Source: Sphaerodactylus townsendi (Eukaryota). From it: a stretch of 64,000 bases of DNA. The notes under the pieces are model-generated. The model did not search any database and had not been told where the DNA came from. It saw only the letters and a list, made by a program, of their open reading frames with translations. Positions 4,869-59,494 of the stretch are shown here, one piece after another. Position 1 is the stretch's first letter, and each line of letters begins with the position of its first letter. Location of the stretch: contig NC_059429.1 in NCBI RefSeq assembly GCF_021028975.2, forward strand, positions 91,884,001-91,948,000, in the 5' to 3' direction. A program made the translations under genes and the position numbers.

Positions 4869-5091
4869 GTAAGTTCCACTTATAAATTTAAACATTGTGA
4901 GCCAAGAGCAGCTGGGAAATGCTGCTGGTGCCATCTTAAAATCTTCTACTTTCTGCTGCCTGCTAAACAGAGCGATATTTCTATGTTCCAGACTAGAGTG
5001 GGAAAATCTTGTCTCTCTACTTTTATTGGGGTTCAAGTCTTTTTAACACAATGTTCTGTCTCTGATTATTGCAATCCATAATGACCTAGAG

Positions 5092-31824: not shown

Positions 31825-32378
31825 GTCTAAAGCATCACCTGTGGACTTAAGCTGGTAGAATGGGAATACCCTGCTCTTCTTGCTACAGCCTATTGAATCT
31901 CCTGAAAGTCTGAGTATCAGAGGTATGGGGGGCCGTTAGCAAAAAATTACATTTTTGTCCTTAGTTTACAGAAGTGCTGTGTTTTGGATTTCCCCTACAG
32001 TTTTATTGGTGGAGATTTAGCATGCTCTTCTGAACATATGGGATTAAATATTTACAGTTGATGAAGCCAGTGTAGAGGAGAAGGAGCTCTGAACAGTCAT
32101 TCATTGTTAATGACCAACACCTTTTTCAAAATACTGTTAGGGTCGAAAGCTCCTAGCACAATCTTAAGTAAAGGTACACCTGTGTAAGTCTATATAAGTC
32201 AATGGAGTTGGAAGAGTGTAGGCATTGCACTGTGCGCTGTCTTTCCTGACAACTCTATATGGATTTGGATGGTAGAAATTCTCAACATTCCTGTACAATA
32301 ACTTCCTTTTAAAAATTCTCTTTCTATCATGCAGAGTATCTTGCTTGTGTATGTAAGTGTTTATTTGCTTACTTATAG

Positions 32379-32542
32379 GCCCCTACGTGTTGGGAACTGG
32401 ACTCCTGTTGTATCTTCTGTCCAAGGAAATTTATGTAATTAATCATGAAACAATTGCTGCGATCAGTATTGTGGGAATCCTCATCTATGGAATTAAGAAG
32501 TTTGGTGGTGATGTAGCAGCTTTTGCTGACAAGCTCAATAAT
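32379..32542 (+). CDS. ATP5PB: ATP5PB exon 4
   Basis: GPYVLGTGLLLYLLSKEIYVINHET...FADKLNN; 164 bp. Confidence 0.96.
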
Positions 32543-33924
32543 GTGAGAAAACAAGTTTTTTGTATTGCCAAGGGCTAAAAGTGTATTCTGCAATATGTTT
32601 CTGCTGGTATTTCTGCAAGAATATTATAGCCTGCATGATGCATAATACATCAGAATTATGTAATCAGCCAAAATATGTCTTCTTTTTTGTGTTTGTAAGT
32701 GGTTTGAACTGAACATGCACATCTCTAATCTTAATTCATTCCCCCTCCCATGCACTTAATTAGGCTTATATTAGTACAATAATACTTTTTCAGTGCTATT
32801 TAATACTAACATTTTAGTTTAAACTTTGATTTCTAAGTTATTATGATGCATTCACAGAATATCCAGAGTGAAGTGAGTTTTATTGTACATTACAGTAATA
32901 AGAATTTTTAAATCATCAAAACTATTGAGCCTTCAGGATTTTGAATATTTTAGCACCACACCACTCCCCACCCCAGTTCAGTTTGTTTTTCATGCTGTAC
33001 TAGAAGTGCTGTTCTGATACAGGGTGTATGTCACATAACACATTGTAACTATTATTGGTTCTGTTTATTTTTCACTGGGACTGAAGGCAGATTACAAGTA
33101 TGGTTGACTGCGTAGTTCTATTAATATGCTGGTTGCTAAGTTTCCTAGTAGAATATAATAATGCAGTGGAGCTAGAATTAAAAACTGTAAGAAAGGTTAC
33201 ACATTATCCCTAATAAAGGTCCCTTCTTGAGTTGATTCATTATAAAATAGTTTTAATTCTTCTACAGGAATGTTGTATGGAAAAATTTTGTTTTGCACAT
33301 ATAACAATAGAAGTGTTGAGGCCTTCTAATAGCCACTGGGAGACTGTCCCATAATATGGCAATTGCTAATTTTATCTGTTTGCATGGTGGCTCCTTCACA
33401 GTGCTTTGTTGTGATGAGCAGAGCTGTGACAGCGGCATGTAGCAAAAGAGGTGGTCCTCCAGGTATGTGGACCCAATGGCATTAAGGGATTTGTAGTTAT
33501 AGTTAGAACCTTGAATTGATCAGTAACCAATGGAGGATTGCAGTAGAGTTCCCCAGTGAGGGGTTTGTGGGCACCATAGTAAAAATGGTGCCCTTTGATA
33601 CCTTTCCGGGTACCTGCCAATTGGTTTCAGAAAGTAGCCAGAGCCAGGTGAGGCTTTTGCCCAGAACGGTTCCTGATTGGCCATAAGAGATTGGTTATGC
33701 AGATTTTTTAAACATTGCTTTGATGGCAGCTGCTGCCATAACACAAAAATGTTCACTGTATGACCAAAGGTAAATGGGGCAGCCAGTTTATGACTGCCTC
33801 CTGAGAGGGCCATTTTGTGGCTGCTCCCACCACTCTTTGTCAGAATTTTGAAGGTGCCATAGACTCAAAAAGGTTGGGGAGCCCTAGTCTACATAATAGG
33901 AGTAATATGAAGATTCTGCTTAGA

Positions 33925-34222
33925 AGAGAAGAAGAGTTTGGATGTATATCTCCCTTTCTCTCCTGTAGGAGACTCAAAGGGGCTTACAATCTCCATTCCC
34001 TTCCCCCCTCACAACAAACACCCTTTGAGGTAGGTGGGGCTGAGAGAGCTCCGAAAAGCTGTGACTAACCCAAGGTCACCCAGCTGGCATGTGTGGGAGT
34101 ACCCAGGCTAATCTGAATTCCCCAGATAAGCCTCCACAACTCAAAGCGGCAGAGCTGGGAATCAAACCCGGTTCCTCCAGATCAGAGTGCACTTGCTCTT
34201 AGCCACTACGCTACTGCTGCTC
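33925..34222 (-). mobile_element. Full-length tRNA-derived squamate SINE (Squam3-like)
   Basis: Minus strand reads GCAGTAGCGTAGTGGCTAAG (A box) and GGGTTTGATTCCC (B box), then a body and a TTCTTC tail. Confidence 0.8.
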
Positions 34223-34699
34223 TCTCTTAGGTGCCTGATAGTAGCCAGGTTGCAATGTTTTATACCAGCTGGAGTTGCCAAGAGTTGTTTTTAATTTAAC
34301 TATGAGAAATCAAAATGAAAAAGATATTTAGAGGTTGTAGTCCAATATACTATTTCTCTATACAGGTGAGAAAAGAGAAAACTAGGTTGGGTGTTTGAAT
34401 CTGTTCCTCTACTGGTGCTACTTCCCTCCAGCCCAAGAGACCCTTTGGCTGATGAAGGTCCAGGTTTCTTATATCAGAGAAAAGCATCACTGTTAGCAGA
34501 ATGGATCCATAGGATGTACCCATCTGGTGTCGGGTTGCTTGTGCTCACTTTGCATACTGCTAAAAAAATTCAAATCAAATAGCAGTTCTGTGACTTCTAA
34601 TGTTTCCTGTATTAAGGTATAAAGATGTGTGGAAGTTAATCTGTAAGTGCAGAGTTGGAACTTTTTCAGATTATGCTGGTATACACTTTCTGTTTCTAG

Positions 34700-34825
34700 G
34701 AAAAAGTTGCTTCTTTAACAGCTATAAAAGATAGTATGATCAGCAGCTTGGAGACGGCAATTGCGGATGAGAAGAAAGAGCAATGGAGGGTTGAGGGTCG
34801 CCACTATCTCTTTGATGCTAAGCGG
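34700..34825 (+). CDS. ATP5PB: ATP5PB exon 5
   Basis: EKVASL...EKKEQWRVEGRHYLFDAKR; 126 bp. Confidence 0.96.
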
Positions 34826-36015
34826 GTACAGTATCACAAATATATAAGCATTGTCTGTAATTGTACAATCATTATGGAAAGTAATTTTGAAAGATCCTCT
34901 GGGCCTCATCCAATCCTTTTTTTTGAACAAAAGGTTCTATTGTGTTGCCTATTCTTTAAACCCCGTGTGGCTCTAATTCCTAAATTTGTCCTTGTGTGAC
35001 TTTGACCCTGTGATAACACAATACCGGAAACTCTTGGGAAAATCATTCTAAAATTTTGTTGGGACAAAATTATCTTGAAGTGCTTTAAAAATATCTCTCT
35101 TCATACTGCCTTCTAAATATAAAAAAAGATTGTGTTGTGTCAAAATGTCAGCAAAAATTTTGAAATACAAGATTTTCTGATGTTAATGGTAGGACATCAT
35201 AACTATGAAATTAATGGTAATAAAAGTGGGTGATATGAGCTATTGGGAGAATACTGAAATTCTAACTTTTTGTGATTTCCTATGAGGATGTAGTGGAAAA
35301 AATGGGTAATAAAATTCCTGTCTCTTCTCTGTCTTCTCTCAATTTGTTTTTTTTCAGCTTTGGTTTCTTTTATTCTGTGTTAGGAGAGTTTCCAGTTTTC
35401 AAGAAAATATAATGTTGGAAGTACTGGTTATGGATATTTAGAAAAATCTTTTGGGATTACTAATAGTGAAGAAACAGCTATCATAGGATAGCTGTTAAAT
35501 CACAGGACCCTTTATTTTTGGGATTGGAACTCCTGTGTTCCTACTGAAGCTGGTCTCCAGTTTTAAGACTCCTAGCTTTATTTTCAGATGAGTTATGTCT
35601 TCCACAAAAGGACAGGTGGACACACGTGTGGATCCCTTTATTACAAATTAATGGTAACAACAAACCAAGGGTATATCTCTCTCATTAGCTTAGATCACAG
35701 TGGGAGCAATTTTGATGGCATTGTAGAAGCAACTGATATGGAACATTATGGGTTAACACTTAAAAAAAGTATTGTGTACTACAGGACAAAGAGACATACA
35801 CAGTATGAGATAGCTATATCTGAATTTACCAGTAATGTTTAGTATTAATGTGTTGCCAAGTTGAATTTTAGTAGACTAATTTTCATTTATGCTGTTTGTT
35901 GATAATAGGTGTTTGATGATATGTAAGGGGGAGGAATATTCTGTTTATGTATAGCATTGTTGTGAAACAAACATTGGAAGCACTGCCATGGAATATTATT
36001 TATTTGCTCATCTAG

Positions 36016-36195
36016 AACAATATTGCTATGCTGCTGGAGACCAACTATAGGGAAAGGCTACTCAGTGTATTTACTGAAGTAAAGAAACGGCTAGACTATC
36101 AAGTTGCTATGCAGCATTTTGTGCGGCAGAAGGAGCAAGATCACATGATCAAGTGGGTGGAGCAAAATGTTAGGAAGAGTATAACAGCTCAACAG
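36016..36195 (+). CDS. ATP5PB: ATP5PB exon 6
   Basis: NNIAMLLETNYRERL...EQDHMIKWVEQNVRKSITAQQ; 180 bp. Confidence 0.96.
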
Positions 36196-37792
36196 GTAAT
36201 TACAAAATGTTTGTTATCATATATGTCTACTTGTGATTGATGCTTTATCCATATGAATGTTACTTTACCTCAAGAGTAGAAGCAGATTGCACTTGGCCTA
36301 GTCAAGAGAGGCGATGTTATTTATACTATTAAGGCTAATGTTTGGGGAGTTGCATACACATTCTTTAAAGTTTTGCTGTGAAGGAGATGACTAATATTGA
36401 CTCAGATACATCAGAAGCTGATGTTCACATTTCCGCATCTATTCATAGCCTCAGACAGGAAACTGGAGCTACAAAAGCTACAAAATTCTGAGCTGACCAG
36501 ATTACCACAAAATAGAAAAGGATTTTATAGTAGCTATAAATGACAGTTATCCCGTCCTCATTGCAACTTTACCCCTTGCTGTTTGGATATATTGTGGGTT
36601 GGCATAAGAAATTAAATGGAAATTTTGGGGAAATTTTGCGAAAGCCACAGACGACACACAAAGACTAGCAGCCGACACAGAAAAAGTTTAGAAACTCAGA
36701 AATACATAAAATGTATGTACAGTATTGTATCATATCAACATATTTTATCTTTTCGTGCTATAAATATGCACAATTTCTTTTCAAAAGCCAAGATAAATGA
36801 ATAAGAAAAATTGAGATTTATTCTCTGGTACAAAGGGAGGACAAAAAATGTTACATGAATTTCCGGATCACGAGGGCCACCACACCCCTAACCCCAGCAA
36901 TGTGGGAAGGATAGCTGTACAGAATTTGAGCACTAATTACACTATATGTGGACAAATGAAATTTAAGTATTACTGTAAAATACAGTGGTTTTTGGATAAC
37001 ATTGTTTAAAGCTTAACAAAAGAAGACCACGGTGAAACGCACCTTCAATCCTTAGTTCATTTCATTGGAATTAGGTGTGCCCAACAGATTTAGATTTTAG
37101 GCCAGTTGCATACAACTTTACAGAATATATCGATCTGGTTGCAGGCCAGTATTTTTATGTATTTTGGCTTTCTCAGATCACAACATATGGGAAAGCCACA
37201 AATCTTTTACAGAACAGAGGTGCCAAGTTGCTTTTTTCACTTACTGGGGAGATAGTAAATGAGTCCACAGAAGGACTTCAGCTGACTGGGTTTAAACCTG
37301 CCTCTGGTCATTCCTCTGCTACCTGCTCAGTATGGTTGAACAGCTTCAAGGTTTACCCCTTCTGAGCTGCGGGTATCACACTCCTTCTAGTTCCCTGATT
37401 CTAAAAGGGAAGATTTGGATGCACGGCCAGACCTTGCCCAGGGTTGCTTTTAGAGGACTGGGCTAATTAGTTTCCCTTTGTCTTCATGATACTTGAAAAT
37501 TGCTTTGTCATTTTAATATAATTGTTGGGTATCTTAAGTAGGTGCTCCTACCTTAAGTAGGTGCTCCTGGATTTGCCTTGCCAAATAAATTTTGATTCCT
37601 TGTTTGGCAATTTCATTCTTTTAGAATTGTTCATGTACAACTTCAAAACAGTGTAGCTTCAGACTAGTTTGCCTTGATTTTTTTACTAGTTTCCTGGTCT
37701 AATCTTATGCTATACATTTTTCTACTGAAAGCCTCATCTCTTCTCCTCCTTCCCCTTATGTCTCAAAGTGTTCATTTGCTTCTTTGTTGCAG

Positions 37793-42946: not shown

Positions 42947-43526
42947 TTATGATGTACTGTTAACTGCATAATCTTGATCTCTGCAGAAGATGTACGTTCT
43001 TAAAATCTGAGAGCATGTTTCCCTAAATTTCTTTATCTTGAAAGCATAGACAATTGGATTCATGACTGAATTTGAGTGGCTGAGAAGGATGCCGATGTAC
43101 CACATATACTGGGGGATCTTAATACGAGGGCAGAAATTTTGAATGCAGTTCATGATACACAGAGGAAGCCAACTCACAGCAAATAACAAAAGGACCAAAG
43201 TCAAATATTTGACTATCTTAAACTCCCTTCTGTAAAATGTTCTTGTTCCTCTGACATCTTTGGACCATTGTCTTAGCTTTGTTTGGATAATGCAGAAGAC
43301 ACTTCCGTAGAGAACAATCATGATGATCAATGGGATAAGGGTACCAACAAAAAAGCTGAAATAAACCATGTACTCCATTTTCATAATTCCGGTGAAAGTG
43401 CAATTCTTGTAGCTTGATTTTTTTTCTGTCCATCCAAAGATGGGTGCAAACCCCATCATCACAGACAACAGCCAGACTATTCCCAGAGCCACCAGAATTC
43501 TTTTTTGACTGGTTATTATCCTATAC
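42947..43526 (-). CDS. ADORA3: Adenosine A3 receptor-like paralog A, coding exon 2 (TM4-TM7)
   Basis: Acceptor ACAG|G; FGW...CTF...MEYMVYFSF, SWLPLCIMNC, ILLSHSNSVMNPIVYAFKIKKFRET; stop at 42947. Confidence 0.9.
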
Positions 43527-44022
43527 CTGTTTGCAAGGGATAAACATAGAATTCCATATAAAAAAAAGATTCGCTTTTTAAAAGCTATAAAGGTTCCAGA
43601 TCACATGCATTCATTTTTATGAGAAATTCTAAGCCATATTTTATTTTATTTTTACAAAATCCTGCCCTCCCACCCTCACAATTACCAAATTAAAACTGAC
43701 ACAATAAAATCACATTTAAGAATCAACTGAAAATCATTAACACAATTAAACCCTCATCTCCTTAGTTTGCAAATTATTTCCCTATGTAAAAAGAAAAAAG
43801 AAAAGCTGCTCAAACATGACAAGGGCCATCATTTAACATATGGTGATAACCTTTTGTCAGCATCTTGTTAAGATCTATTAAAAGTTGTGAGCTTTTTTCC
43901 TGGTTCTTGCCATGAGACTCTGGAGTGGCAACATGGGAGCCCTTGGCTTTTTTTCTTCTTTGGGCATGCAGTTACTTTCTCATCTTTGGCTTGGCCAGCA
44001 CCTGGCTTACCTCCAGCTAGAC

Positions 44023-44121
44023 CAGGGGTAGGGAACCTGCGGCTCTCCAGATGTTCAGGAACTACAATTCCCATCAGCCTCTGTCAGCATGGCCAATTGG
44101 CCATGCTGGTGAAGGCTGATA
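44023..44121 (+). mobile_element. Truncated copy of the 148-bp palindromic hAT MITE in the paralog A intron
   Basis: Matches the left arm and centre of 5092-5239; right arm lost. Confidence 0.85.
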
Positions 44122-45141
44122 AGTCCTGAACCATTGGAAAACACTCAACTAACTAGACTATAGGAACTCTGCACTGCTTGAGAATGCTTGTAGTGATTTC
44201 ACTCTGCTGAGATCTCAAGGGTGGGGATTGGAGGAATGTTTGGAAGAGAGAGATTAACCAAGAAATGCTGTAGTGGAACTCAGTTCCATTAAAGCTCGCT
44301 TTCATGCTGTGTTACCAAACCACCCTGGCATGGGTGGGTGGAATGCTTATTCACGAGTATCCTTGCCCTCCTGCCAGCCTAAAAGGGTGATGCTGGTCTT
44401 GCAGAGATGGGGAGCCCCAAACGTAAAAAGCTGGCAGGTGTAGATCCTACAAAGAGCTTTCAGGAATTGTGATTCCACTGTTTCTCATGCTCTCAGCTTG
44501 CTTGCCATATCAGCACATTTTCAGCTCCACAGCCAAAGAATGTGTCCTCAACATGATACAGTCGCCCTGCTGAATGGATTTCCAGCTACAAGAAGACTCT
44601 CCTGATGTCATTGCCTCCCACGGTTCATGCTTAAACCTTAGATACTACTCCCTTCTGTAACTAACTTCTTCTGACCACCTTACAATGCAATGTTGGGGTG
44701 AGAGATGGGACAGGAGGTGGACAGAGAAAGAGAGTGTGAGGGGTTGGGGATCAGAAAGAGAAAGAAAAAGTAATGGAGTTGAGAACAGAAAGTGAGAAAG
44801 AAAAAGTGATGGGTGGGAATTAAAAAAATAGAAGGAACAGCCGTAGTTTGACAGAAAGTAAGAGAGCAGTGCGGGAGTGAAAGAGAAACAGCGAGAAAAG
44901 TGGGGAGGGGGAGAGAGGAATCAAAGGTGGGAGAATGGCATGACTACTCCCCATACATATGCGGGCTCCTACTTGTATGCCATATTGGTTTCATAATAGG
45001 AAATGGAAGCCCATCAGTTCAAACGTTCAAATCAGCATTTGCCAGTAGTAAATACAGACAGTCTTATGCATATAAGCCAAATGTTTAAACCCAAGTTCCC
45101 AAACTGTCCTTGAACAATTGGTATCTTTAACAATGACTCAC

Positions 45142-45464
45142 CGGGTAAGGAACCTCACTCTCAGGTATCTGTCAACAGCAATAGCAAGGAGTGACATGAT
45201 CGAGGTTTGAGTGCAAGCCACCAGCAGGCAGCACATGAAGAGGCAGGCTTCGAAAGGGAGTTGGACTTTTAAATCCACCATGATGGCCACTGGCAACACG
45301 AGTCCAACTGCAATATCTGCCAGTGCTAGTGAGAGAATGAAGTAGCAAGTTGTTGTCAGACTAGCTGAGTTCTTCTTAACTACCCAGATGACTAGGATAT
45401 TACCCAAGGTAGCAAGCACTGCAATTACAGACTCCAGGAAAGCATAAACTTCCTTGAGTCCCAT
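45142..45464 (-). CDS. ADORA3: Adenosine A3 receptor-like paralog A, coding exon 1 (TM1-TM3); 300-aa protein
   Basis: CCAAGATGG start; [49 protein letters not shown]; donor CG|GTGAGT after DRY, the conserved adenosine-receptor intron position. An in-frame upstream ATG at 45521 is also possible. Confidence 0.9.
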
Positions 45465-45808
45465 CTTGGAAATGAAGAATATCTCCTCAAAATGCAGAAT
45501 TATGGAAATTTCTTTCAACATTGATGACCTGAAAAAAGCTTGGCATATCAGGGATCCTATAACCAAGCACCCAGTGATGCCCACATCCTCATAAATTCAC
45601 AAAAATTACATTTCCCTGCTAAGTGTACATTTCCCTGCTAAGTGTTTTTGTATGCTGAGCCAGAAGTGAGTAAGCTTCATAATGGGATTTCAGTAAAGAA
45701 AAAGCTAGATAAGATTTTAAAGGCTCTTTATATTTTAATTGCAGCAAAGCCCATTGAGGGAAAGATGCAGTGAGCCCTAGCAAAGGGTGACAACGTGTGG
45801 CTAGGCTG

Positions 45809-46182
45809 GGGGAGGGTTGGAAGGTGAGGCTTTGAGTGGGGGAGGGTTGGAAGGTGTGGCTAAGGGTGGGGGGAGGGTAGAATGTGAGGCTTGGAGTGAG
45901 AGGAGGGTTGGAAGGTGAGGCTTGGGGTGGGGGAGGGCTGGATGCAGTGGTGGGATTAAAATAATGTAACAACCGGTTCCAGTGGTGGGAATTCAAATAA
46001 TTTAACAGCGGGTTGCTTACAAGCACCATTTTAACAACCAGTTCTGCCAAAGTGATGCAAACCTGCTGAATCCCACCACAGGTGTGGCTCAGGGTGTGGC
46101 TAAGGTGTGGGGGGAGGGTAGAATGTGAGGCTTGGAGTGAGAGGAGGTGAGGCTTGGAGTGGGGGGAGGGTAGAATGTGAGA
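45809..46182. repeat. G-rich ~30-bp minisatellite interrupted by a small hAT-like MITE (~45945-46079)
   Basis: Units such as GGGGAGGGTTGGAAGGTGAGGCTTGGAGTG; insert CAGTGGTGGGATT...AATCCCACCAC. Confidence 0.8.
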
Positions 46183-46667
46183 TCTGGATGCCATTGGGAT
46201 ATGTTTTATTGACAGGACAGGTTGCTAAATCTGTCTATTGTTTTAGAGTATTAAATTGTATTTTTTAATGTTGAAATTGCCCTGAGCCTATAAAGAGTAG
46301 GGCAGCCTACAAATAAAATAAAATATCCTAAAAGTCTGTGGCGTGAGTACAGTCTGCCTCCAAACAAGGTAAATTTAGACTTAGAGATGGGAGAAAGTAT
46401 TCCTGCAAGGTAGGATTTACAACCAGTTATGGATACAGAAATCCCAACATGTTGGAGTTTATGATCAAGAGGCAGTTGAGAATGTAATATGCTTCCCTAT
46501 CAATAAGTATTCCAGAGAGGGAGAGAGAATTCTCCCTGGGATCCCCAGTGGAATCATGAAGTTCTGAAAGGATCTATTATTTACTGTAAGACTTCATTTC
46601 ATTTCATATGACATGATTGTTAAAAGTACTTTTTGTTGTTGCAGCTGTGAAAATAAGAACTGGACAT

Positions 46668-46668
<1 letters not shown>

Positions 46669-46730
<62 letters not shown>
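46669..46730. repeat. (TAT)n microsatellite, ~20 units, probably the 3' tail of the adjacent L2-like LINE
   Basis: Directly visible; abuts the 3' end of the minus-strand LINE. Confidence 0.9.
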
Positions 46731-48415
46731 GTAATTAGTGCAGGTTTATAGACCCGCCCTCCCCGGAGAACTCAAGAGGCCCGATGTGAACAACATGTAT
46801 AAGTAAGAAACACAATATCAAGTTAAAACCAGTAAGTAATGCATATAAATTAGAATGCAGCTCTAATAGAAAATACAGCCCTACCCCCCATTAAAATACT
46901 ACATTATTAAGAGTACATTAATATAAAGATGGCACCTGCTGCCAGCTCCCCAAAAGCCAACCCTAGGGGGGGAGGCGGTGGGATCAAGCTAGATGTTATA
47001 AAAAGAGAGAGAGGGAGGGGCCCCAATCAGCTGCCTAGGCCTCCCCCAAAGGCCCAGTGGAACAGCTCCGTCTTGCCCAGGCCCTGCGGAACTCAGCAAG
47101 AATCCATGGCAGGGCCCAGACAGCACAATTTTGGTGGGAGGCGAATTCCACCAGGAGCCCAGAAGGCCAGAGCTGTAAAAGGCTCTGTAGCCTGGGTGGG
47201 AAGACCAGCCTTACCGTATCCATTGAGGGCCAGGGATCACCAGTAAAGTTAGCCTCTGCCGGCCATGAAGACAAGATTTAGCAGGACATATAAGGGTAGG
47301 CATGATCCGGTAGATGCGAAGGAGATCCCGGGCTCGCCAAGGGCCTTAAAAGAGTTAATACCAGCACCTTTTATGAACATGATTCGGTATTCAGTTGAAG
47401 TAGCCAGTGCAGCGGCCGAAGCTTACAAGGTGTAATATGCTATGTTCTCTCATGGCACCCCTGTGAGCATCACGGGCCGCATGCATTCTGGACTTAACAT
47501 TTTTCAGATCTCGAATCGAGAGCGCCTTAAAGGCCTGCGTGAAGCCAGAGTTGCAATAATCTAGCCTGGAGGTGACGTTGCATGGACCACAGTAGCAGCC
47601 AGTCAATTGACGGGAGATGAAGGGGAGCCAGCTAGCCGGTTTGGCGTAAGATGGTAAAAAAGAATCAGGACCCGGGTTATATGGGCCACCTGGAGTCTCC
47701 ATTGAGAGAAGAGAATGAATCCAGAGTGGACCCCCCCGAATGCTAGAGACAGAGGGCTGGCGGGTGCCAATGCATAGCCCCCCCTCCCATCATCAGCGGC
47801 TGAAAATCCCACCCCCCCTCACACCCCAAGCCAAAGGATCTCCGTCTTGGGTGGATTCAGTTTCAACCTGCTCTGAGCACCAACCAACCCAGCCACGGCC
47901 TCCTAAAAGCAATGCTGGAGAGCTGCCGAAGCGTGACTGCTCCCACTCCATCAACAGAGATGAGCTGAGTGTCATCCCAGCATATTGGTGACCACGATCA
48001 GCCCGAAGCTCCGCACCAACTGAGCAAGGGAGTGCATATATAGATAATAATTGAGGCAGCAGAAGCCCTGGAGGCACACCACAATGAAGTGAGCACCTCC
48101 GGGATGCTTGGTCCCACACCACACTTGCTGTGTCCGGTCCCGGAGAAACGAGGCAATCCACTCAAGGACAGTGCCTGCTTTTGCACCCAGGCGGCCAGGC
48201 GGTGGGTCAAAGGGTAGGTGGTCGACCACATCAAGCGCTATGTTAGATCTAACAAAACCAGCAAGCGCCGATCCACTATGAAGTCTGGTTGCAAAGGGCA
48301 AATCCGTGTGGCCAGTGAGGCGGTCTCTGTCCCATGCCCAGCCGCCGGAACCCGGTTGAAAGGGATCAAAAGCGATGTCCTCCAGGAAACTGAAGCTGCT
48401 CCAACACCACTCTGT
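46731..48415 (-). mobile_element. L2/CR1-group LINE fragment (RT region, frameshifted)
   Basis: Pieces DPFQPG, LDVVDH, LEWIASFLRDRTQQV, HCGVPPG, HQYA, VTSRLDYCNS spread over several minus-strand frames. Confidence 0.85.
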
Positions 48416-48665
48416 CAATTACCTTCTGAGAAACCTTCCCAGAAGGATTTTGTATATCAGAGATTTATTTATCCTGTAAAGATGATCACAATTTAAGTTC
48501 TCCATGATACACTACACATGTAACTAGAGTTTCCCATGCTGGTAACTGATGTAATGTCTATGTATATATTTGTTTGTTTGTTTTTGTGAATACTGTTTTG
48601 CTACTAGTTAAGTTTTAAACAGATTTCATCACATATAGTGCTGGATGACAGGATGGGAAATCTAT

Positions 48666-50764
48666 GGCCCCTTCCGCACATGCAGACTAATGCACTTTCA
48701 ATCCACTTTCAATGCATTTTGCAGCTGGATTTTACTGCGCAAAATAGCAAAATCCACTTGCAACACTGGCGTTCCTGCCTAGGGACAGGGGTTACCCTAT
48801 GTCCCCTGAAGCCCCATTTAGTGGTCCGTGGAAGCCAACATTTCGAATTAAGTTTGTGCAATCTTTTAAAATTTTAAGTGTTTTTTTTCACGTTTCAAAG
48901 GTACTGCAGAGGCGTATTTTAAGGCCTTCATGGAACCAACATTTCAGGGTACCATCCAGAGACTGTCCTGATGATACCACCCAAATTTGGTGATGTTTGG
49001 TTCAGGGAAGCAAAAGTTATGGACCCCCCAAAGGGGTGCCCCATCCATTGTTTTTCAATAGGGAAGGGCTAACCTGAGATGGGAGCTACTCATTTGAGGG
49101 ACCATAACTTTGGCCCCCCTGAACATAACTTCACCAAACTTGGGTGGAATAATAAGAATAGTTAACAGATGATACCCTGAAAATTTGAGTGTCACTAGCT
49201 TTACAAAATACCCTTCCAGAGCACCCAAAGAAAATTTGCCCAGGATTCTTTGTTTTGCAGTGACTTTGCTCCATTGTAGCCAATGGGAATTTCTGAAGTG
49301 TGTAGGCAGGCTGCATTTTTTTTTGAAGATAGAGGCACCAGACTTTCAGGGTGGCTCCAGGAGAACCTCCCTGGTAATAGCATCCAGGTTTGGGGCAACT
49401 TTGCTTCCTGGAGGGTTCAATTTTATGGGCCCCAAAGGCTTATTTTGTTTCCCAGCTCCTGCACATGAGAAGCCTGTGGGCTGAGTTCTCTCAGAACTCT
49501 CTCAACTCCCCCCGCTCCAGAAGCAAAGCTCACCAAGCTTGGGTGCTGTTACTCAAAACCTCTTGGAGCCACCTTGAAAGTCTGGCACCTCTATCTTCAA
49601 AAATGTGCAGCCTGCCCCAGAAATTCCTCATTAGCTACAATGAATTAGCTACAAAATCACTGCAAAACAAAGAATCTTGGGCAAATTTCTTGGGGCGCCT
49701 GGAAGGGATGTATTTTTAAGCTAGTGATACCAAAATTTCGGGGTATCATCTGTTAACTATTCTTATGATGCCACCCAAGTTTGGTGAAGTTATGTTCAGG
49801 GGACCAACGTTATGGTCCCTCAAATGGGTAGCCCCATCTCAGGTTAGCTCCGTTGAAAACAATGTGGATAAGGGCATTTCCATTTTGGGCGATCCATAAC
49901 TTTGCTTCCCTGAACCAAACATGATGCCAAACTCGGTGAATTATCATCAGGGCAGTCTCTGGATGATGCCCTGAAATCATGGTGCCGCTAGCTTTAAATA
50001 AACTGGCTCCTGCGAATGAAAAAACTATAAAATACCCCAAACCAAATGATACCTTGCATTAGCATTTTGTTCATATTAGGGCAGGGACATAATCGGACAA
50101 TTTTTTGTCCGAATATTGCTAAATTTGCCAGTTTCCAGCCGAATCTTCTATTTGTTTCATCTGAATCTCCAACCCTCCAAAAGTGATGCTGTTTCCAGGG
50201 AATTTGGGGAGAATCCCACCCAAACAGCATCACTTTCCCAATTGTTTTAACCGAAGGGACTCCAGATTCTCCTTTAAGGTGAATTTAAAGAAGAATCCTG
50301 AGCTCCCTAGTTTAGAAAGCACCATTGAAAGTGATGCTGTTTGGGGAGTGGATCCTGGAGAGTGTTTTGTGAGAGAGATGATGCTGACATTTGTTTTGGT
50401 AAATGTTTTGCTGGGGGTGATTTAATGAGAGATTTACATGCTTAATACCCACTTGCACTGGCAGGTTGTTGTTTCTCAGGCTAACAACCTACCTCATAGG
50501 GTTGTTGTGATTAGGAAAATTAGGAGGAGAAGAGTTGGTGGGGAGAGGCATGTATGTTTTCTGGGAGTGGGAGGTGTTTTGTGAGCTGGTACAAAAAAAT
50601 CATTGTTTGGTCATGGTGGGGGAGGGTGGCGACGCCCTATGCCTTGCAGAGGCATGAAACTCAGGTTTTGTCCCCGGGTGCCAGTTTGCCTAGGTATGCC
50701 CCTGCTTGCAAACAATTGTGAAACTGGATTGAAAGTGTATTAGTCAGCATGTGTGGAAGGAGCC
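48666..50764. mobile_element. Harbinger-type MITE split by a ~1.94-kb hAT-like insertion (48764-50704)
   Basis: MITE halves 48666-48763 and 50705-50764 with TSD TAT on both sides. The insert runs CACTGGCGTTCC...GGTATGCCCCTG and is flanked by duplicated CTTGCAA. Confidence 0.85.
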
Positions 50765-51562
50765 TATGGCTTATGAACTGGGGGGTCATATCTTTTTAAA
50801 GACTCTTATCACAGACCATTTTCCTGAGCCCTCACCCTTAGGAAAGTTTCATTATCGAACTTGAAGATAGTGCAAATTGATAAAGCAGATGTGGTATTAA
50901 CATCTTCCTTGTGGTATGTGATGTAGCTAAGGCAGCATGTTAAAAATGATTTGATCTTCACTTGCAGATTTGGCCTATGGAAAGTTACTCAACTGAATTC
51001 TCAGAACTCCACAAACAGTAAAATGTTCAACAAATGTCTCTGAATAACATTACCCCAATTAGCTACTTCTCTGCTTTAGATTCTGTACCCCAAAATAAGT
51101 TATGAATCACTCCAAATCATGGACCTCTGGACTCTGTAGCGCATACAATGCAAGCCACCATACAGGGGAATCTATTCCAAATACCTTTTTTTGTGTGTGT
51201 GCGAAGTGAATAGCGGAAATTTTTGCAAAACACTCACACATACTAGGTTTTGGACAAGGGAATAGGTTATGTTAATTTTAGGGAAATCATCAGAATTTTA
51301 TTAAAAAAAGACTTTTCAGTCATTCAGTAAACAAATTACTGATTGACTGATGTCATCATATTCAGTCAACAGATTACAAGACATGAAAACCACATTTGAG
51401 TCTAACAGCCAAGGTTGCTAGCACGAGAGGAAAAAGCAAGAACAATGCAAGCAAATGTATCTCTTTAAGGCAAGAAGACAACCATTTCAGAAAAGACTAT
51501 CCCGAAGAAAAATCCTCTCTTGGGCTGAACCATTACACCACAGCTTTGCTCCTTCTGCAACA

Positions 51563-51702
51563 ATGCCCAATCTTGTCAGATCTCAGAAGTTAAACCAGGT
51601 TGGCCCTGTTTCATGTCTTGCAAACCACCACTGAACATTTCTTGTCTTGAAAAGCCTGTGGGATTGCCATAAATCAGCTGTGAACTGATGGCAAAAAAAA
51701 AA
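51563..51702 (+). mobile_element. 5S rRNA-derived SINE, decayed
   Basis: GCCCAATCTTGTCAGATCTCAGAAGTTAAACCAGGTTGGCCCTG is 5S-like; tail shared with 1402-1580; ends in an A-run. Confidence 0.6.
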
Positions 51703-53357
51703 AAGGACAGAACAGCAGCACTTTGGGTGTCCTTCACCACTGATTGTAACTGAGGATGAGGCCACGAGATGGTAAACATACTTGCTCTGGTGCAAATCCA
51801 TATCTGACCGTGTGAATTAGTTATCTGTTAGCTGAAACCATGAAGAGGGATCGGGTAGAATAGATTATAGAATTCACTGCTACTAAATCCAAACAAAAGT
51901 GACCTCCACTGGGACCCATCACAGATATACATTTAGTAACGATAGATAATAGGAAACCTTAAAATTACATTTTTAGCACTTGCATTATTGTGGCTGCTGG
52001 CGAAACTAAACAGCTGATCAGTGGTGAGATCAAAATTTTTTAGTAACAGGTTCCCTCGCCAGCTCCCCCTCAGCAAAGGGGGCAGAGGCATACCTAGGCA
52101 AACCTGAGCCGTGGGCAAAACCTGAGTTGGATGCCCCCCTCATGGGCAGCCACCCCACCACGACTCCCCCCAATTCTTTTGCACCAGGTCATTTCTAAAT
52201 CATCATCACATTATAGAAAATGCCCCAACGCACAAATCTGAACACAGCAATGGTGAAACACACAGGTTCTTTGATAGAGACTGGTGAGATAAAAGGTATG
52301 AAAGGCTGAGAATCAATGAATTGTAGTACCTGAAAGGGATTAACCCAGTTCAGGGAGTTACATTATTAGTCACAAGTGCTATATGGAACCTTCACATTCA
52401 AAGGCAGTATGCCTCTCGGGGAGGCGAGGGCATGGAGATGGAAAAGCGGACCCAATTAGTAACCCCCTCTCGGCACACACAAATAATTAGTAACCCACTC
52501 TCTGGAACTGGTGAGAACCTGCTGGATCCCACATCTGCAGCTGATGTTTCCTCAGTGGGATATAATTGCTAGGAGAGTCTCCCTCCCTCCTGGTTCTATT
52601 GAAGTACGCATTTCAAGTACCCAAGGGGACTTGAAAAAGGTGTTCCCCTCCAGCTGAAGTGAAAGTGGGTCCACGTGTATGAAGAAACAGAAGTAAGTCC
52701 TCTCTCCCTCCCTCTGTTGCTCTCTGGATGGGGTGTATGGTAATGTGTCTGCTGCCCTGCAGAAATGCTTCTTTGCCTCCACCTGTGTTCTGCATGTATA
52801 TTTGTAAATGAAGCAAATGTCACAAAGATTCTGTCAAAATGCCCTGTGGTAAATCCGGGAGTGTACTTGCCACAGAACTTTTTGCCCTGCTTCTCTCTTC
52901 ATTGCTCCCCAGTTCTTCCTGGGATTTGAGGCAGGGCCAGTGCATTATGCCCCAACTGTTTCTTCATGAGCCTGGTGCTTCTCTATTTGCACCGTGAGCT
53001 CTTCTGCAATGTCTTCCATGCATGCGCAGACAACCTCCATTTCCCATGTTCTGATTGGCTGAATCCCTCCATATTTTTCCACTGAAAGGGCGGGCACCGA
53101 TTCTCAGTGCCTGTTCATTTGTGAGGTGGGCCAGAGCAGCAAGGAGGGGAAAATGCCCCCGGTTCTGCTGCTGTGGAGATTTTCATGGCAGCAGAAGCCA
53201 CCGGAGCAACAAAGGGGCATTTAAAAAGAACCTCAAATTTGATGGTTTTGGAAATTTGCAGAGCAAAGCCAATGCTGCGGGGCAGCACCAGGGCAACAAC
53301 GTGGCAGACATGCTGCAGCATCTGGGAGCCGTAAATAACTTCCAGCTGCACCAGAGT

Positions 53358-55545
53358 GAATAGAATAGAATAGAATAGAATCTTTATTGGCCAAGTGTGA
53401 TTGGACACACAAGGAATTTGTCTCCGGTGCATATGCTCTCAGTGTACATAAAAGAAAAATACATTTGTCAAGAATCATAAGGTACAGCACTTAATGATTG
53501 TCATACAGGTCTAGTAAGCAATCAGGAAACAATCAATAGTAATGAAAACATAAAATGTAAAATCATAAAATAAAATAAAATAAAATGTCAGCTGGGCTAT
53601 AGTCATACAGTCCGCCGAGGTGGGGAGGAGATGGGTAATAGGAATGATGAAAAAAAGTAGTGCAGTAATTATATAATAAGTATATAATAAATAGTTTAAC
53701 ATTATCCCGAGGAATTATTTCTTTTAACAGAGTGATGGCGATTGAGGAAAAAAACTTTGATGTATGTCTAGTTGTCTTGGTGTGCAGGTGCTCGTGTGGC
53801 GGCGTTTAGAGGTAAGAGTTGAAACAGTTTATGTCCAAGATCTGCGGGGTCGGTAAATGTACCACTGCCCTTTTTTTTTGACTTCAAGTGCAGTATACAG
53901 GTCCTCTCCAATGGAAGGCAGGTTAGCAGCAATTGTTTTTCTGCAGTTCTGATTATTCTCTGAAGTCTGTGTCGATCTTGTTGGGTTTGCGGGGCCAAAC
54001 CACACAGTTATAGAGTGCAGATGACAGACTCAATAATTCCTCTGTAGAACTGTATCAGCAGCTCCTTGGGCAGTTTGAGCTTCCTGAGGTTGAGCAGAAG
54101 AACATTCTTTGTTGTGCTTTTTTTTGATGACATTTTGATATTAGGTGACCATTTTAGGTCATGAGATATGATGGAGCCCTAGAATTTAAAGGTCTCTACT
54201 GTTGATACTGTGTTGTCTAATTATTGTGTGAGAGAGGAGGTAGGATGGGAGGTTTCTCCTGAAATCTACCACCACCATTTCTACGGTTTTAAGTATTGTT
54301 CAGTTCTAGATTGTTCAGTGGCACCACGAGGGCTGGATTGTTCAACCTCCCGTCTGTATGCGGTTTCATCGTTGTCTCGAATGAGACCAATCACTGTTAA
54401 TATCATCTGCAAATTTCAGTATTTTAACAGATGGATGCGTTTGAGATGCAGTCATTGGTATACAGAGAAGAGAGAAGTGGTGAGAAATTACACAGCCTTG
54501 GGGCCCACCAATGCTCATTTACAGGTGTCTGATGTAATTTTCCTAGCTTCACCTGCTGTTTCCTATCTGTTAAGGAAGCTTGTGATCCACTTACAAATAT
54601 GCTCGGGTACTGCTAGCTGATTTAGTTTGGTTAGAAGAGGATGTCGGTCTGATAGTATTGAATGCTGTTAAAAGTCAACAAAGAGGACCCTTGCATAGGT
54701 CTTTGGCAATTCAAGATGCTGGGATATAGTGCAAAGCCATATTAACAGCATCGTCTGTCGATATCTATTTGCTTTCGGTATGCACAGAATTGCAAGGGTC
54801 CAACAAAGGATCATTGATGGTTTCAAATGGTACATCACTAGCCTTTCAAAGTTTTCATAACTACAGATGTTAGAGCAACTGGTCTGTAGTCGTTCAGTTC
54901 CTTGATGGAAGGCTTCTTGACTGGGGCGATAATTGGAGTGTTTGAAGCAGGAAGGAACATATAGCACCTCTCTAGTGATTTGTTGAAGATTTGGGTGAAA
55001 ATGGGGGGAAAATTGGACAGCACAGACTTTTAAGCAAGAAGGTGTTATCTTGTCTGGGCCTGAATTGCTTTTCAGGCTTCTGTCTGTGAAATAGATCTTG
55101 CACTTCCTTTTCACAGAGATCACCAGGGTTGTAAAGCCCAATGGGAAATGGAGTTCAGTTGTGGGAAGGTTGGCGATTGTTGGTGCGTCTGGGATAGAGG
55201 GTGTGGAGCACGGTGACTGTAGATTGTTTTCAAACCTACAGTAGAACACATTCAGGTCATCTGCCAATTGCTGATTTCCTTCAGCTTGGGAAGGTGGTTT
55301 GCTGTAACCGGTGATATTTTTGAGAGTTTTCCACATGTTTGCTGTTTCGTTTGGTGAAAACTGATTTTTTAGCTTTTCAGAGTCGTTTCTTTTTGCTGCT
55401 CTGATCTCCTTTGTTAATACATTTCTGGCCTGATTATACAGCATTCTATCACCCTTTCTGTAAGCCTCTTCTTTGGAACGGCGTAACTGCTTAAGTTTAG
55501 CTGTGAACCAAGGTTTGTTGTTACTATATATACGCAAGTTCCTGG
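53358..55545 (-). mobile_element. Rex1/Babar-like non-LTR retrotransposon, 5'-truncated and frameshifted
   Basis: NNKPWFT..., LADDLNVFYCRFE, GPDKI, LNDYRPVALTSVVMK, YARVLFVDF; (CTATT)n 3' tail seen as GAATAGAATAG at 53358-53381. Confidence 0.85.
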
Positions 55546-56464
55546 AGTGTTCTCCATGATAACAACGGGGCATTTTTACTGTGAAAAATCAGCCTATGTT
55601 TCTAGTGTGCTCTCATCCAAAGGGAGTCAACCCAGGTAAATATCACCCTCAGAACTTCTCATGGCTCAGAAAAGGGAACAGGTAACAATTTCTTACTTTT
55701 AACTTTTCTCCTTGAGCTAATATTATTTCTCAATAAACTAAAATATTTTTACATGATTTTGGCTCTGAGTGCGTGTGTTAACCAAATCCAGAACCCATGT
55801 AAGGGGTAATGATTCCGACTCTTACACCACAGCTTCGTTTTTAAAAGAAGCTTGTAACTTCCTATGAGGTTAGATTACAAGATTGAGTTTTTGCAAGACA
55901 CCTGGGTGTATCTCAGAACAAGTAGGATAAGATTTTTATTTTCGGCACTTCCTGCATAGAATGGTGCTTGTCTGTGTGCATAAATATGCCTAAGAACCTA
56001 TCAAGAGAAACATCTAGAAAACCTTTCCTCATCCAGATTGTAATAACTGTTACCAGAAGTAGTGTATTTTACAAGAAGGAAATCTATTGACCACGCTTAG
56101 GTAATTGCTTCCTCTTAAGGATTTTCAGTCTATGTTTTACTTTTGCTAGTTTAATATTTTCTTGAAGAGGCTTGACTGATATGCTTTACTCATATATGTT
56201 GTTTGTTTCAGGGTAATATACCAATATACCTGGAATTAGGAGTACTTGGACAAATATAAGCCTCTAAGAGCAATTTGATTCTGCAGATTCCCCCACAAAA
56301 ACTGCTTTTTGAGAGACAAAAGGCAGAAGGGGACAGCTCATCTAATTCTGTGTGAAGTAAAACTCTGAGGCTGGCAAGATTTCTTAAAGTGGATTATCAT
56401 CACTACGTCACGCTTCTTTGCTGGGCTCTTCTGCCTGAGGACTGTGCTTGAATTTCAGTGGAAG

Positions 56465-56814
56465 ATGACCAATAGCAACCTGTCCAACGACCCTCTGCTT
56501 ATTGTCTACATAACTATTGAAGCCCTGATAGGATTGATGGCCACCCTGGGAAATGTTCTGGTAATCTGGGTAGTGAGACTGATCCCAGCCAACCAGAATA
56601 CTACTTTTTACTTCATTGTGTCTCTGGCCCTGGCTGATATCGCTGTTGGGATTCTTGTTGTTCCACTGGCCATTGTAGTGAGCTTGGGACTTAAAATGCA
56701 CTTCTATGCTTGCCTCCTCATCTGCACCCTGTTGATGGTTTTTTCTCATGCATCCATCATGTCCTTGATGGCCATAGCAGTCGATCGGTACTTGAGAGTA
56801 AAGGTTCCCACACA
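56465..56814 (+). CDS. ADORA3: Adenosine A3 receptor-like paralog B, coding exon 1 (TM1-TM3); 321-aa protein
   Basis: GGAAGATGA start; MTNSNLS (N-glycan sequon), [60 protein letters not shown]; donor CA|GTGAGT; 350 bp. Confidence 0.92.
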
Positions 56815-58878
56815 GTGAGTATCATTAATGTAGTGCCAATGAATTTCATTCCAGTATGATCTGGCATCAATCGTGTCATGGCTCCTGTGGCTATCTCTCC
56901 TTTCTTTCAGTCCATACTTACTCAGAAAATAAGCTGTCTACTATCTCAGTAACTCGGGCACCAGGTTTAGGGTTTGTGTCAGAAATTTACTAAACGGAAC
57001 CTGTCCCCTTAATATCCCTTCAAAATATTTTCAAATTGAACAGAATTATTTCTGACGCTTGGTAGCAGTTGGAAATCTGACAACTATTCTAAACTCAGTT
57101 TAACTCAGACAGCAAGGGGGGAAAGTCATTTAGCAGATGTATGTTGACAGTGATGACACATAATCAGCAAGATTAGCCAGATGAACAACATGGCCACAAT
57201 TGGTGGGTTGTGTACAGCATTTGGACTTTCTGTTGGTTACTATATGTTCTCAATGCCTTTGGGACAGGTTTGTGATACCATATAAACCTAGGTCCTGTGT
57301 TTATTTGAGATGTTTTGTTCTCTGAGGCTGCATGCACCAAGCAGCTTTAAAGGTTTTCCTTGCTACTCCCTCCCCTACATGATAAGCAATCTCCTGGGGC
57401 TTTCTCCCCCCTCAGTAAGAGAACACACACAAGAGAGATTGGTGATGACACAGGATCAGATAATCTCTCTGTACAAGAAGGAACTGCTGATTCCTGATGT
57501 TGATTTCATTTTACAGCTTTATGGTGATCATATTAACAAGTTTGTTTGTATGTGGGTGATAAGCCAAGAAGATTGTTTTCAAGTTTAAAAAAAACAGAGC
57601 ACATGTGCAAGGGAAGCTAACCCTCCCCATTTTTCCTTGCTCTATGTCACAAAGCATAGGTTTCCCTAGGCAGACTCCAATAACTAAGCTGAAAAATGAA
57701 ACAGAGTGAGGCAGAACACAGCAGAGGATAGGACTGAGCTTGGGCCTGAAATGGGGAAGGAAAGATCCCTTGGGTGAAGAGCGAAGAAGACCTGTGGTAT
57801 TTCTTCCAAATGCTGGTTGTGGCGGTAGAGTTATACATGGAAATGTTTCCTTTGAAACTAGGAAATGTTGAATAGATTAATTTCACTATTCAACTAGACT
57901 TACTTGCAATTTTGAAGTAAAGTGAAATAATATCATAAGAGTTAAATTCAAAGCAAGGTGTTTTTGGACAGCCCTAGTCAGTGCTGTCTGACCCATTTGT
58001 TTCACCTTGCTAGCAATCAGAAACCTTTCAAAAGCAATCAAGCGACACGATGCCTTTCCGTCTACAAATGTCCCAACAATCAGCTAAATAGTTATTGCTT
58101 TAGATCAAAGCAGTCTATAATCTAAAATATGTATATCCCATCCTGCCATTAAAATGCATTGGGTGACCTTGGGATGGTTATTCTCAGTCAAACCTACCCC
58201 ACATGTTAATGCAAGGATAAAATGGAGGAAGGAAAGGATGTTGTAATTGTTGTGGGTCCCTAGTTGGGGGAAAACTTGGTATAAATATCTAAATTAATTA
58301 ACAACAGCCATTTAAATCATTTTTTCTGGTTTTGATAATAAATTGGCAAAAGAACTATTATTCTATGTATGTTTAATCCATCTATGCCTAGAAGGAGTGA
58401 CCTAAATTCCAAACTGCCTTTGGCTTTCCCACTAAAAACTAAGACTAGGCAAGGCAATCCTTGCTATTTCCTTATCCTTCCTTCCCCATCCACTGCTATC
58501 AATAGTCTACTTATGCCAAATTGCTATATTTTCTCATTCCCATCCTGCTATTTCCTCCCCCCATGTTATTTGCCCTTAGCTCCTTTTCTACACATGAGTT
58601 TCTGCTTAAATCTCACTGGCTAGGGATCAGCAAAGAAGAATAGGCAACCTCGAGCCCTTCGGGGAGGAGGTGGCCTATAAATTTAATTAATAAATTAAAA
58701 AAAATAAACCTGCCATTTGATTACACTGGGGGCAGGAAACACAGGGGTTTAGTTGAAGCTTAGGAACATCAAGTCAGCATTTTAGTATAATCAATACAAT
58801 AATTGTGCATGAAGGTGTTGCAAAGAAAGACCTGACTATACAAGAACTGCAGCTAACATGTTTTTTTTTTCAAAATAG

Positions 58879-59494
58879 GTACAGAATAATTGTTACCCGG
58901 AGGAGAATCTGGGTGGCTCTGGGAACTTGCTGGTTCATGTCTTTCTTGGTGGGTCTTGTGCCCTTGTTTGGATGGAACCGAAGGAACCCCCAAAACCCCA
59001 GCTTCTTGGAATGTCATTTTCAGAATGTGATGAACCTAGATTATGTCGTGTTCTTCAGCTTCTTTTCCTTGATCCTTGTTCCACTGCTGATCATGTGCAT
59101 CCTTTACGTAGAGGTCTTCCGTGTCATCCAAAGACAGCTAAAGCAAACTGCAACATCCGTCCAGGGAACAGGAATATTTTATAGAAGGGAATTTAGAACA
59201 GCCAAGTCTTTGGCCCTGGTCCTTTTTCTGTTCATTGTGTGCTGGTTGCCTTTGTGCATTCTGAACTCAATCTCACGTTTCTGCCAAACTTGTAGAATAC
59301 CTCCGTTACTGTTCTATCTAGCCATTCTGCTCTCTCATGCCAATTCAGCTATGAATCCCATTGTTTATGCCCTCAGGATCAACAAGTTCAGAAAAACCTA
59401 TATTCTCATTTTCAAAACGTTCATTTTGCACATGAAACGAGAACCTGATGCTGAGAATTCATCAATAGATCAGTTGTCAGAAGATACTCTCTGA
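58879..59494 (+). CDS. ADORA3: Adenosine A3 receptor-like paralog B, coding exon 2 (TM4-TM7)
   Basis: Acceptor T10-CAAAATAG|G; FGWN...FLECHF, REFRTAKSL, CWLPLCILNS, ILLSHANSAMNPIVYA; TGA at 59492-59494. Confidence 0.92.

What the first reader, a model, noticed from the sequence alone, without database searches (positions are those of the whole stretch)
43340..59060. Complementary ligand-pocket substitutions suggest different agonist preferences
Seen, compared with recalled human A3 (T3.36/H3.37, ECL2 F-V, M5.38): A has T-Q (Gln as in A1/A2A), ECL2 C-T-F-T in a shortened loop, and M5.38. B has S-H, ECL2 C-H-F-Q, and Val at 5.38 (LDYVVF). Known: these positions shape A3 selectivity, and mammalian A3 also responds to inosine and N6-modified adenosines. 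Inference: the paralogs may divide sensing of adenosine, inosine and modified nucleosides.
Basis: partly seen in the sequence, partly recalled or inferred. Interest (0 to 1): 0.7.

Follow-up and report, generated by a model that had tools for sequence, protein, structure and literature searches.

The report
Old twin adenosine A3 receptors
This gecko has two intact adenosine A3 receptor genes head to head, a pair also found in crocodilians and many birds, and one twin carries a rebuilt ligand pocket that likely changes how it responds to adenosine, but probably not by sensing methylated nucleosides as first proposed.

Summary
The window is from the gecko Sphaerodactylus townsendi, and both genes are already annotated (ADORA3, ADORA3-like). 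In the gecko alone, pocket differences are not enriched: 9 of 19 positions against 125 of 274 overall. The same two receptor types occur in other lizards, four crocodilians and many birds. Of 282 positions only 7 separate the types in all three lineages, and 6 of those line the pocket. The split is one-sided. Type A keeps the frog/turtle pocket (Gln3.37 is a squamate change from Asn). Type B was rebuilt: Met3.33, Ser3.36, His3.37, Tyr45.52 (Phe in this gecko), Val5.38. These residues sit under the purine ring and the ribose 5' end, not in the N6 pocket that reads m6A and i6A. Both gecko receptors are polar at two N6-pocket sites, and published non-mammalian A3 receptors gave no m6A EC50. A split by modified nucleoside or inosine is therefore unsupported. 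A long-kept difference in adenosine potency, efficacy or 5'-side tolerance is likely but untested; neutral repacking is the main rival. Trees do not resolve one origin versus several. I found no paper on the pair.

The parts
45142..45464 (-). Gene A (ADORA3-like, ancestral-pocket type) coding exon 1, TM1-TM3; V3.33, T3.36, Q3.37
   Evidence: ATG at 45464, GT donor after 45142; the spliced product equals P0121, the annotated 300 aa protein
42947..43526 (-). Gene A coding exon 2, ICL2 to stop; C-T-F-T, M5.35, M5.38, T5.47, C6.52, N6.55, Q6.58, W7.35, H7.43; one Cys in ECL3
   Evidence: AG acceptor, open frame, TAA stop; codon positions
56465..56814 (+). Gene B (ADORA3, rebuilt-pocket His type) coding exon 1, TM1-TM3; M3.33, S3.36, H3.37
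   Evidence: ATG at 56465, GT donor after 56814; the spliced product equals P0001, the annotated 321 aa protein
58879..59494 (+). Gene B coding exon 2; C-H-F-Q, L5.35, V5.38, I5.47, C6.52, N6.55, S6.58, F7.35, H7.43; ECL3 C-x-x-C
   Evidence: AG acceptor, open frame, TGA stop; codon positions; seven-helix model, pLDDT 85.6, best fold match sheep A3 8yh0
45465..56464 (.). 11.0 kb between the two start codons (head-to-head arrangement); holds what looks like a decayed retroelement frame at 54671-55588
   Evidence: Coordinates; long minus-strand frame, no Pfam hit, retroelement label recalled; no CpG island found here
32357..36237 (+). Neighbouring ATP5PB exons (synteny marker); gene A ends tail to tail with it
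   Evidence: PF05405 above cut-off in two exons

Best explanation
A and B are two intact ADORA3 paralogs, likely from one old reptile-line duplication, and B's pocket under the purine ring and ribose 5' end was rebuilt, which is predicted to give it a different adenosine potency, efficacy or 5'-side tolerance from A. Shown: both genes are intact two-exon A3 genes; the two types occur in geckos, a lacertid, a cordylid, four crocodilians and many birds; the fixed differences cluster at 3.33, 3.36, 3.37, 45.52, 45.53 and 5.38; A matches frogs and turtles except Gln3.37. From human A3 structures: 3.33, 3.36, 3.37, 5.42, 5.47 and W6.48 form the 5'-substituent pocket beside the toggle switch, 45.52 stacks on adenine, and 5.38 adjoins 3.33/3.36. 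Inferred: both still bind adenosine (N6.55, H7.43, W6.48 and an aromatic 45.52 are kept) and couple to Gi; selection keeps B's pocket distinct while gene conversion has partly blended the rest, so the pair most likely acts as two adenosine sensors with different thresholds or strength of signal.
For: Diagnostic sites: 6 of 19 pocket against 1 of 263 other positions, Fisher p=3e-7; 5 of 18 without 3.37, p=4e-6; the three other ways of pairing the paralogs across lineages give 1, 4 and 3 sites, none in the pocket. Rate control on 149 slow sites (same in turtles and frogs): B type changed in all three lineages at 5 of 11 pocket against 2 of 138 other sites, A type at 1 of 11 and 2 of 138; site 6.52 changed in both types. 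B-type haplotype M-S-H-Y-V-I in 26 of 45 proteins, His3.37 in 45 of 45. Four-group site patterns: squamate-crocodilian 10 paralog-type, 11 lineage-type, 0 crossed; crocodilian-bird 11, 7, 0. Pocket anatomy and mutant effects. Paralog dN 0.37, dS 1.71, saturated.
Against: No assay of either receptor. Trees leave the amniote groups as an unresolved fan; AU tests reject neither one B-type clade (p=0.31) nor separate duplications in squamates, crocodilians or birds (p=0.47, 0.47, 0.17). With seven type-associated pocket columns removed, the two squamate paralogs group weakly together (78/81). Squamate-bird patterns are 8 paralog-type, 11 lineage-type, 6 crossed. I matched types across lineages partly by His3.37. 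V3.33/M5.38 against M3.33/V5.38 is a reciprocal size swap that could be neutral. Human T94A barely changed adenosine pKi (4.9 against 5.0) and H95Q barely changed CF101 potency. Some duck, ratite and owl B types depart at single sites. Expression evidence is thin.
Confidence: 0.55

Rival explanations
1. Neutral repacking: B fixed a set of mutually compensating changes (Met3.33 with Val5.38; Ser3.36 with His3.37) that keeps the pocket's shape. The twins read adenosine alike and are kept for different expression or regulation.
For: Reciprocal V/M swap between 3.33 and 5.38, which share one sub-pocket in the LUF7602 structure; F-to-Y and T-to-S are conservative; human H95Q is mild for potency; N6.55, H7.43 and W6.48 are the same in both gecko proteins.
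Against: Only slow pocket sites changed, all in one paralog, and stayed changed in three lineages. Mammals run a mixed set, L-T-H-F-M-I in 12 of 12, so the residues are not locked together. His3.37 changes alter efficacy in a ligand-dependent way in human A3.
Confidence: 0.25
2. B has moved to a different natural purine (for example a 5'-modified adenosine such as methylthioadenosine, AMP, or inosine), while A remains the adenosine receptor.
For: The changed sites are those that hold the 5' substituent and the adenine ring; one-sided change followed by long conservation.
Against: All direct polar contacts to adenosine (N6.55, S7.42, H7.43) are kept; His3.37, Ser5.42 and Ile5.47 are shared with mammalian A3, an adenosine receptor; no docking or assay was possible; the candidate ligands are my suggestion and come from no call.
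Confidence: 0.12
3. One reading: the twins divide adenosine, inosine and N6-modified nucleosides (m6A, i6A).
For: A and B differ at all four N6-pocket positions. I253Q raised i6A potency in human A3 and gecko A has Gln6.58.
Against: Three of those four positions are not fixed by type; 45.53 is the exception but is Gln, Pro or Leu by lineage in B. Gln6.58 is in 1 of 9 squamate A proteins. The Ile/Leu6.58 plus Leu7.35 pairing of m6A-sensitive mammals is in 0 of 180 squamate, crocodilian and bird proteins. No m6A EC50 for chicken, frog, lizard or fugu A3 (I could not see which lizard paralog was used or whether adenosine worked in that assay).
Confidence: 0.06
4. History rival, separate from function: lizards, crocodilians and birds duplicated ADORA3 independently and one copy converged on the same pocket each time.
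For: AU tests do not reject lineage-wise pairs; 7-11 sites unite the two paralogs within a lineage.
Against: Needs five parallel changes at slow sites three times; non-pocket paralog-type sites also link squamate with crocodilian and crocodilian with bird copies, with 0 crossed sites; copies are neighbours in each lineage.
Confidence: 0.12

Closest known systems
Mammalian adenosine A3 receptor (human 8x16/9ebh, sheep 8yh0)
   Same: Best sequence and fold match for both genes; N6.55, H7.43, W6.48, S5.42, non-His 6.52; neighbour ATP5PB. B shares His3.37 and Ile5.47; A shares T3.36, F45.52 and M5.38.
   Different: Two genes here, one in mammals (recalled); Cys at 6.52; polar N6 pocket; longer ECL3, with C-x-x-C in B; B type has Met3.33, Ser3.36, Tyr45.52 and Val5.38, seen in none of 12 mammal proteins.
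Chicken, turtle and frog ADORA3
   Same: Pocket of gene A: V/I3.33, T3.36, N/Q3.37, F45.52, M5.38; chicken A3 also reads T-Q.
   Different: No His-type copy from turtles, galliforms or passerines appeared among the 120 listed of 902 hits; loss is suggested, not shown.
Adenosine A1 receptor
   Same: Gln3.37 of human A1 matches A; an ECL3 C-x-x-C like that of A1 is in 44 of 45 B-type proteins.
   Different: A1 is a separate gene 6.6 Mb away in this genome (L003) with His6.52, Asn5.42 and Glu45.53; both window genes fall in the A3 clade.
adora4 and adora5 of fish and reptiles (PMC8462279)
   Same: Extra adora clades beside adora3.
   Different: adora4 was not found in tetrapods, and that study sampled one reptile (python) and chicken for adora (passages). 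A and B nest with amniote A3 beside frog and caecilian A3; named adora4/5 sequences were not in my trees.

Membership tests
Adenosine A3 receptor (ADORA3) | Class A 7TM receptor with DRY and NPxxY | tested here: met
   PF00001 171 and 158 bits; motifs in both; seven-helix model of B
Adenosine A3 receptor (ADORA3) | Core adenosine contacts: aromatic 45.52, W6.48, N6.55, S7.42, H7.43 | tested here: met
   All present in A and B; roles from PMC11544091 and PMC12361428
Adenosine A3 receptor (ADORA3) | Groups with A3 rather than A1/A2 | tested here: met
   A3 side against A1 outgroup 100/100; best PDB hits are A3; separate A1-, A2A- and A2B-like genes elsewhere in the genome (subtype labels from recalled motifs)
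Adenosine A3 receptor (ADORA3) | Conserved position beside ATP5PB, WDR77 and RAP1A | tested here: inconclusive
   ATP5PB confirmed; Ras-family exons about 170 kb beyond B not identified; WDR77 and the human gene order are recalled
Mammalian A3 pharmacology | His3.37-Ser5.42-Ser6.52 sub-pocket | tested here: not met
   A has Q-S-C, B has H-S-C; definition from PMC11021478
Mammalian A3 pharmacology | Hydrophobic N6 pocket (45.53, 5.35, 6.58, 7.35) for m6A | tested here: not met
   A T/M/Q/W, B Q/L/S/F; definition and mutants
Mammalian A3 pharmacology | Short ECL3 without disulfide | tested here: not met
   Both loops are two residues longer than eutherian A3; B keeps C-x-x-C, and 0 of 9 squamate A proteins do
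Adenosine A3 receptor (ADORA3) | Activation by adenosine and Gi coupling | not testable with these tools
   Needs expression assays

The most novel reading that the evidence does not exclude
Reptiles and birds have an unrecognised fifth adenosine-receptor subtype: the His-type A3 twin, rebuilt early in reptile history to sense a different natural purine or to signal at a very different adenosine level, kept distinct against gene conversion, and overlooked because mammals, chickens, songbirds and turtles keep only one copy. Mammalian His3.37 may derive from this line.
Probability: 0.15. Interest if true: 0.75.

Novelty: new variant of a known kind. Interest (0 to 1): 0.42.

Why it matters
If the pocket difference is functional, it is a natural experiment on how A3 agonist recognition and efficacy are set, at the sub-pocket that drug design already targets. 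It also means that 'the' bird or lizard A3 in comparative pharmacology may be either of two receptors: chicken A3 is A type, while the gene named ADORA3 in this gecko is B type. If the difference is neutral, the pair is an ordinary old duplicate and a small annotation correction.

Tried and rejected
Recent gecko-specific duplication: rejected; paralogs share 154 of 297 residues, dS is saturated, and only the coding exons align at 65-68%; both clades span squamates at 100/100. Pseudogene: rejected; frames, splice sites and stops are intact and orthologs are intact in other geckos. Short ECL2 as a paralog trait: rejected. Gln3.37 as an A1/A2A relic: rejected. Dating the duplication or placing mammals by tree: unresolved; B type plus mammals plus axolotl as one clade gave p-AU 0.07. 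Expression: no RNA holder listed. Three RNA runs added by species label were laid; only X13 had reads on coding exons (depth up to 1.4 on A exon 2, none on A exon 1, up to 1.7 on B exons), X11 and X12 had none, and no splice joint was listed in the RNA runs. This is too little to show or rank expression. RAP1A and Ig-domain (TMIGD3-like) motifs were not found in the window or the next 80 kb. The structure model came without coordinates, so no distances or docking. The 50%-identity representative search gave caecilian and newt A3 but no clearly named fish A3 among the 10 looked up. Earlier scan findings: none. The journal version of the m6A paper was not held, and the preprint's supplement (Fig. 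S5) was not seen; it may say which lizard paralog was tested.
Full report
What is there. Two two-exon class A receptor genes lie head to head, 11.0 kb apart between start codons: A on the minus strand (45464-45142, 43526-42947; 300 aa) and B on the plus strand (56465-56814, 58879-59494; 321 aa), each with GT-AG splice sites and an open frame. They are 100% identical to proteins annotated as adenosine receptor A3-like and adenosine receptor A3 of Sphaerodactylus townsendi. The genome search found four more adenosine-type loci elsewhere. ATP5PB exons lie next to the end of A. A model of B is a confident seven-helix bundle whose best match is sheep A3.

Observation. From the gecko pair alone the pocket is no more different than the rest: 9 of 19 pocket positions, 77 of 196 transmembrane positions and 125 of 274 overall. 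The 19 pocket positions are those named in the three structure papers read; numbering was transferred by alignment to a 318-residue lemur A3.

The pair is old. I grouped full-length proteins as squamate B 7 and A 9, crocodilian 4 and 4, bird 34 and 122, turtle 11, mammal 12 and amphibian 13. These are mostly 90%-identity cluster representatives, not species counts. Exon-only fragments were left out, and three mammal and one amphibian row are unnamed and placed by similarity. Within each lineage the two clades are strongly supported (99-100), but their deep order is an unresolved fan, and AU tests reject neither one B clade nor separate duplications. Site patterns show both paralog-type and lineage-type sites with no crossed sites for squamate-crocodilian (10, 11, 0) and crocodilian-bird (11, 7, 0), and a weaker squamate-bird result (8, 11, 6). 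One duplication followed by partial gene conversion fits this best; that step is inference. Crocodilian paralogs are 65 of 68 identical over TM6 to helix 8 but 130 of 174 over the TM1-TM5 blocks (summed by hand). The squamate-archosaur split at about 280 million years is recalled.

The fixed differences are in the pocket. Seven of 282 positions separate the types in all three lineages: 3.33, 3.36, 3.37, 45.52, 45.53, 5.38 and residue 249 beside N6.55 (p=3e-7). The result holds without 3.37, which I used to match types across lineages (p=4e-6), and the three other pairings give no pocket site. Restricting to 149 slow sites controls for pocket conservation: B changed at 5 of 11 pocket sites against 2 of 138 others, A at 1 of 11 against 2 of 138, and the one shared site is 6.52. 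So the change is one-sided: A keeps the frog and turtle pocket, and B is derived. Gln3.37 of squamate A came from Asn and recurs in galliform birds. Mammals carry a mixed set, L-T-H-F-M-I.

What those residues do. In human A3, T3.36 bonds the 5' carboxamide of NECA and piclidenoson, and L3.33, H3.37, S5.42, I5.47 and W6.48 form the pocket for its tail; H95A lowers adenosine pKi from 5.0 to 3.7 and changes efficacy by ligand, while T94A leaves adenosine at 4.9 and lowers NECA from 6.3 to 4.6 (PMC12361428, passages). F45.52 stacks on adenine (PMC11544091, parts 2-4 of 9 read). Alanine at 3.33, 3.36, 3.37 or 5.38 removes the CF101/CF102 response in NanoBiT, but H95Q leaves pEC50 at 8.30 and 8.36 (PMC11021478, passages and rows of supplement 1; supplement 3 had no text). 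B's changes are therefore placed to alter efficacy and 5'-side recognition. They are also partly reciprocal in size (V/M against M/V), which keeps neutral repacking alive as a rival.

Modified nucleosides. m6A and i6A are read by 45.53, 5.35, 6.58 and 7.35. A has Thr, Met, Gln, Trp and B has Gln, Leu, Ser, Phe. Polar swaps at 45.53 and 6.58 selectively weaken m6A. The m6A preprint cloned chicken, frog, lizard and fugu A3 and reports no applicable EC50 for non-mammalian vertebrates, and weak responses in rodents with Ser6.58 (10.1101/2020.11.21.391136, passages; supplement not seen). Inosine could not be judged.

Other differences. B types keep an ECL3 C-x-x-C in 44 of 45 proteins and squamate A types in 0 of 9. 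ECL3 affects agonist selectivity in human A3, but most crocodilian and bird A types shown also keep the motif, so this is a squamate A loss. By recalled human gene order, human ADORA3 has the position and orientation of gene A, although the database gives the name to B.

Novelty. Both genes are annotated. I found no paper describing the pair or its pocket split (listings; the library lacks most subscription journals). The one evolutionary survey found sampled python and chicken for adora genes (PMC8462279, passages). No His-type copy from turtles, galliforms, passerines, snakes or iguanians was among the 120 listed of 902 hits; only 7996 candidates were scored, so these are possible losses only.

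Verdict. A real, previously undescribed variant of a known receptor: an old ADORA3 twin with a conserved, one-sided pocket rebuild. Different pharmacology is likely (about 0.65-0.7 including a ligand shift); the m6A/inosine division is unlikely. Interest 0.42.

Noticed in passing
P0346 vs P0053 and P0348 vs P0352 (crocodilian paralogs): Near-identical in TM6 and TM7-helix 8 (32/33 and 33/35 in Alligator) but 68-80% in the TM1-TM5 blocks; looks like gene conversion of the 3' part that spares the pocket-defining region.
   Followed up: partly
P0178 (axolotl) and P0228 (newt): Axolotl A3-like has His3.37, Ser5.42 and Ile5.47 like mammals; the newt protein has Asn3.37 and is only 84 of 136 identical to it. 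Salamanders may also have two A3 genes, which could push the split back to early tetrapods; the tree did not resolve it.
   Followed up: partly
window 45495-45546: A contig of run X5 differs from the window here by several substitutions and gaps, upstream of gene A's start, and lacks the in-frame ATG at 45521; assembly error or allele.
   Followed up: no
window 43218-43200, gene A TM6: Gecko A reads REFKIVKYL, with Val6.34 where nearly all other A3 have Ala, and Tyr6.36, which geckos' A type shares with bird B type. Position 6.34 is recalled as a site of constitutive activation.
   Followed up: no
L005 (G000:C6:130336928-130337437): An intronless adenosine-type receptor, probably the reptile adorb2/A2c described in PMC8462279; identity not tested.
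   Followed up: no
P0420, P0224, P0418 (falcon, crane, secretarybird B type): Some bird B-type proteins show breaks in conserved motifs or deletions; the copy may be decaying in some lineages, or the records may be faulty.
   Followed up: no
window 1756-4869 (+): A 1038-codon proline-rich open frame with no Pfam hit; likely a large exon of an unrelated gene.
   Followed up: no
G000:C5:92115783-92121767 (+): Ras-family exons about 170 kb beyond gene B, probably RAP1A; not identified.
   Followed up: partly
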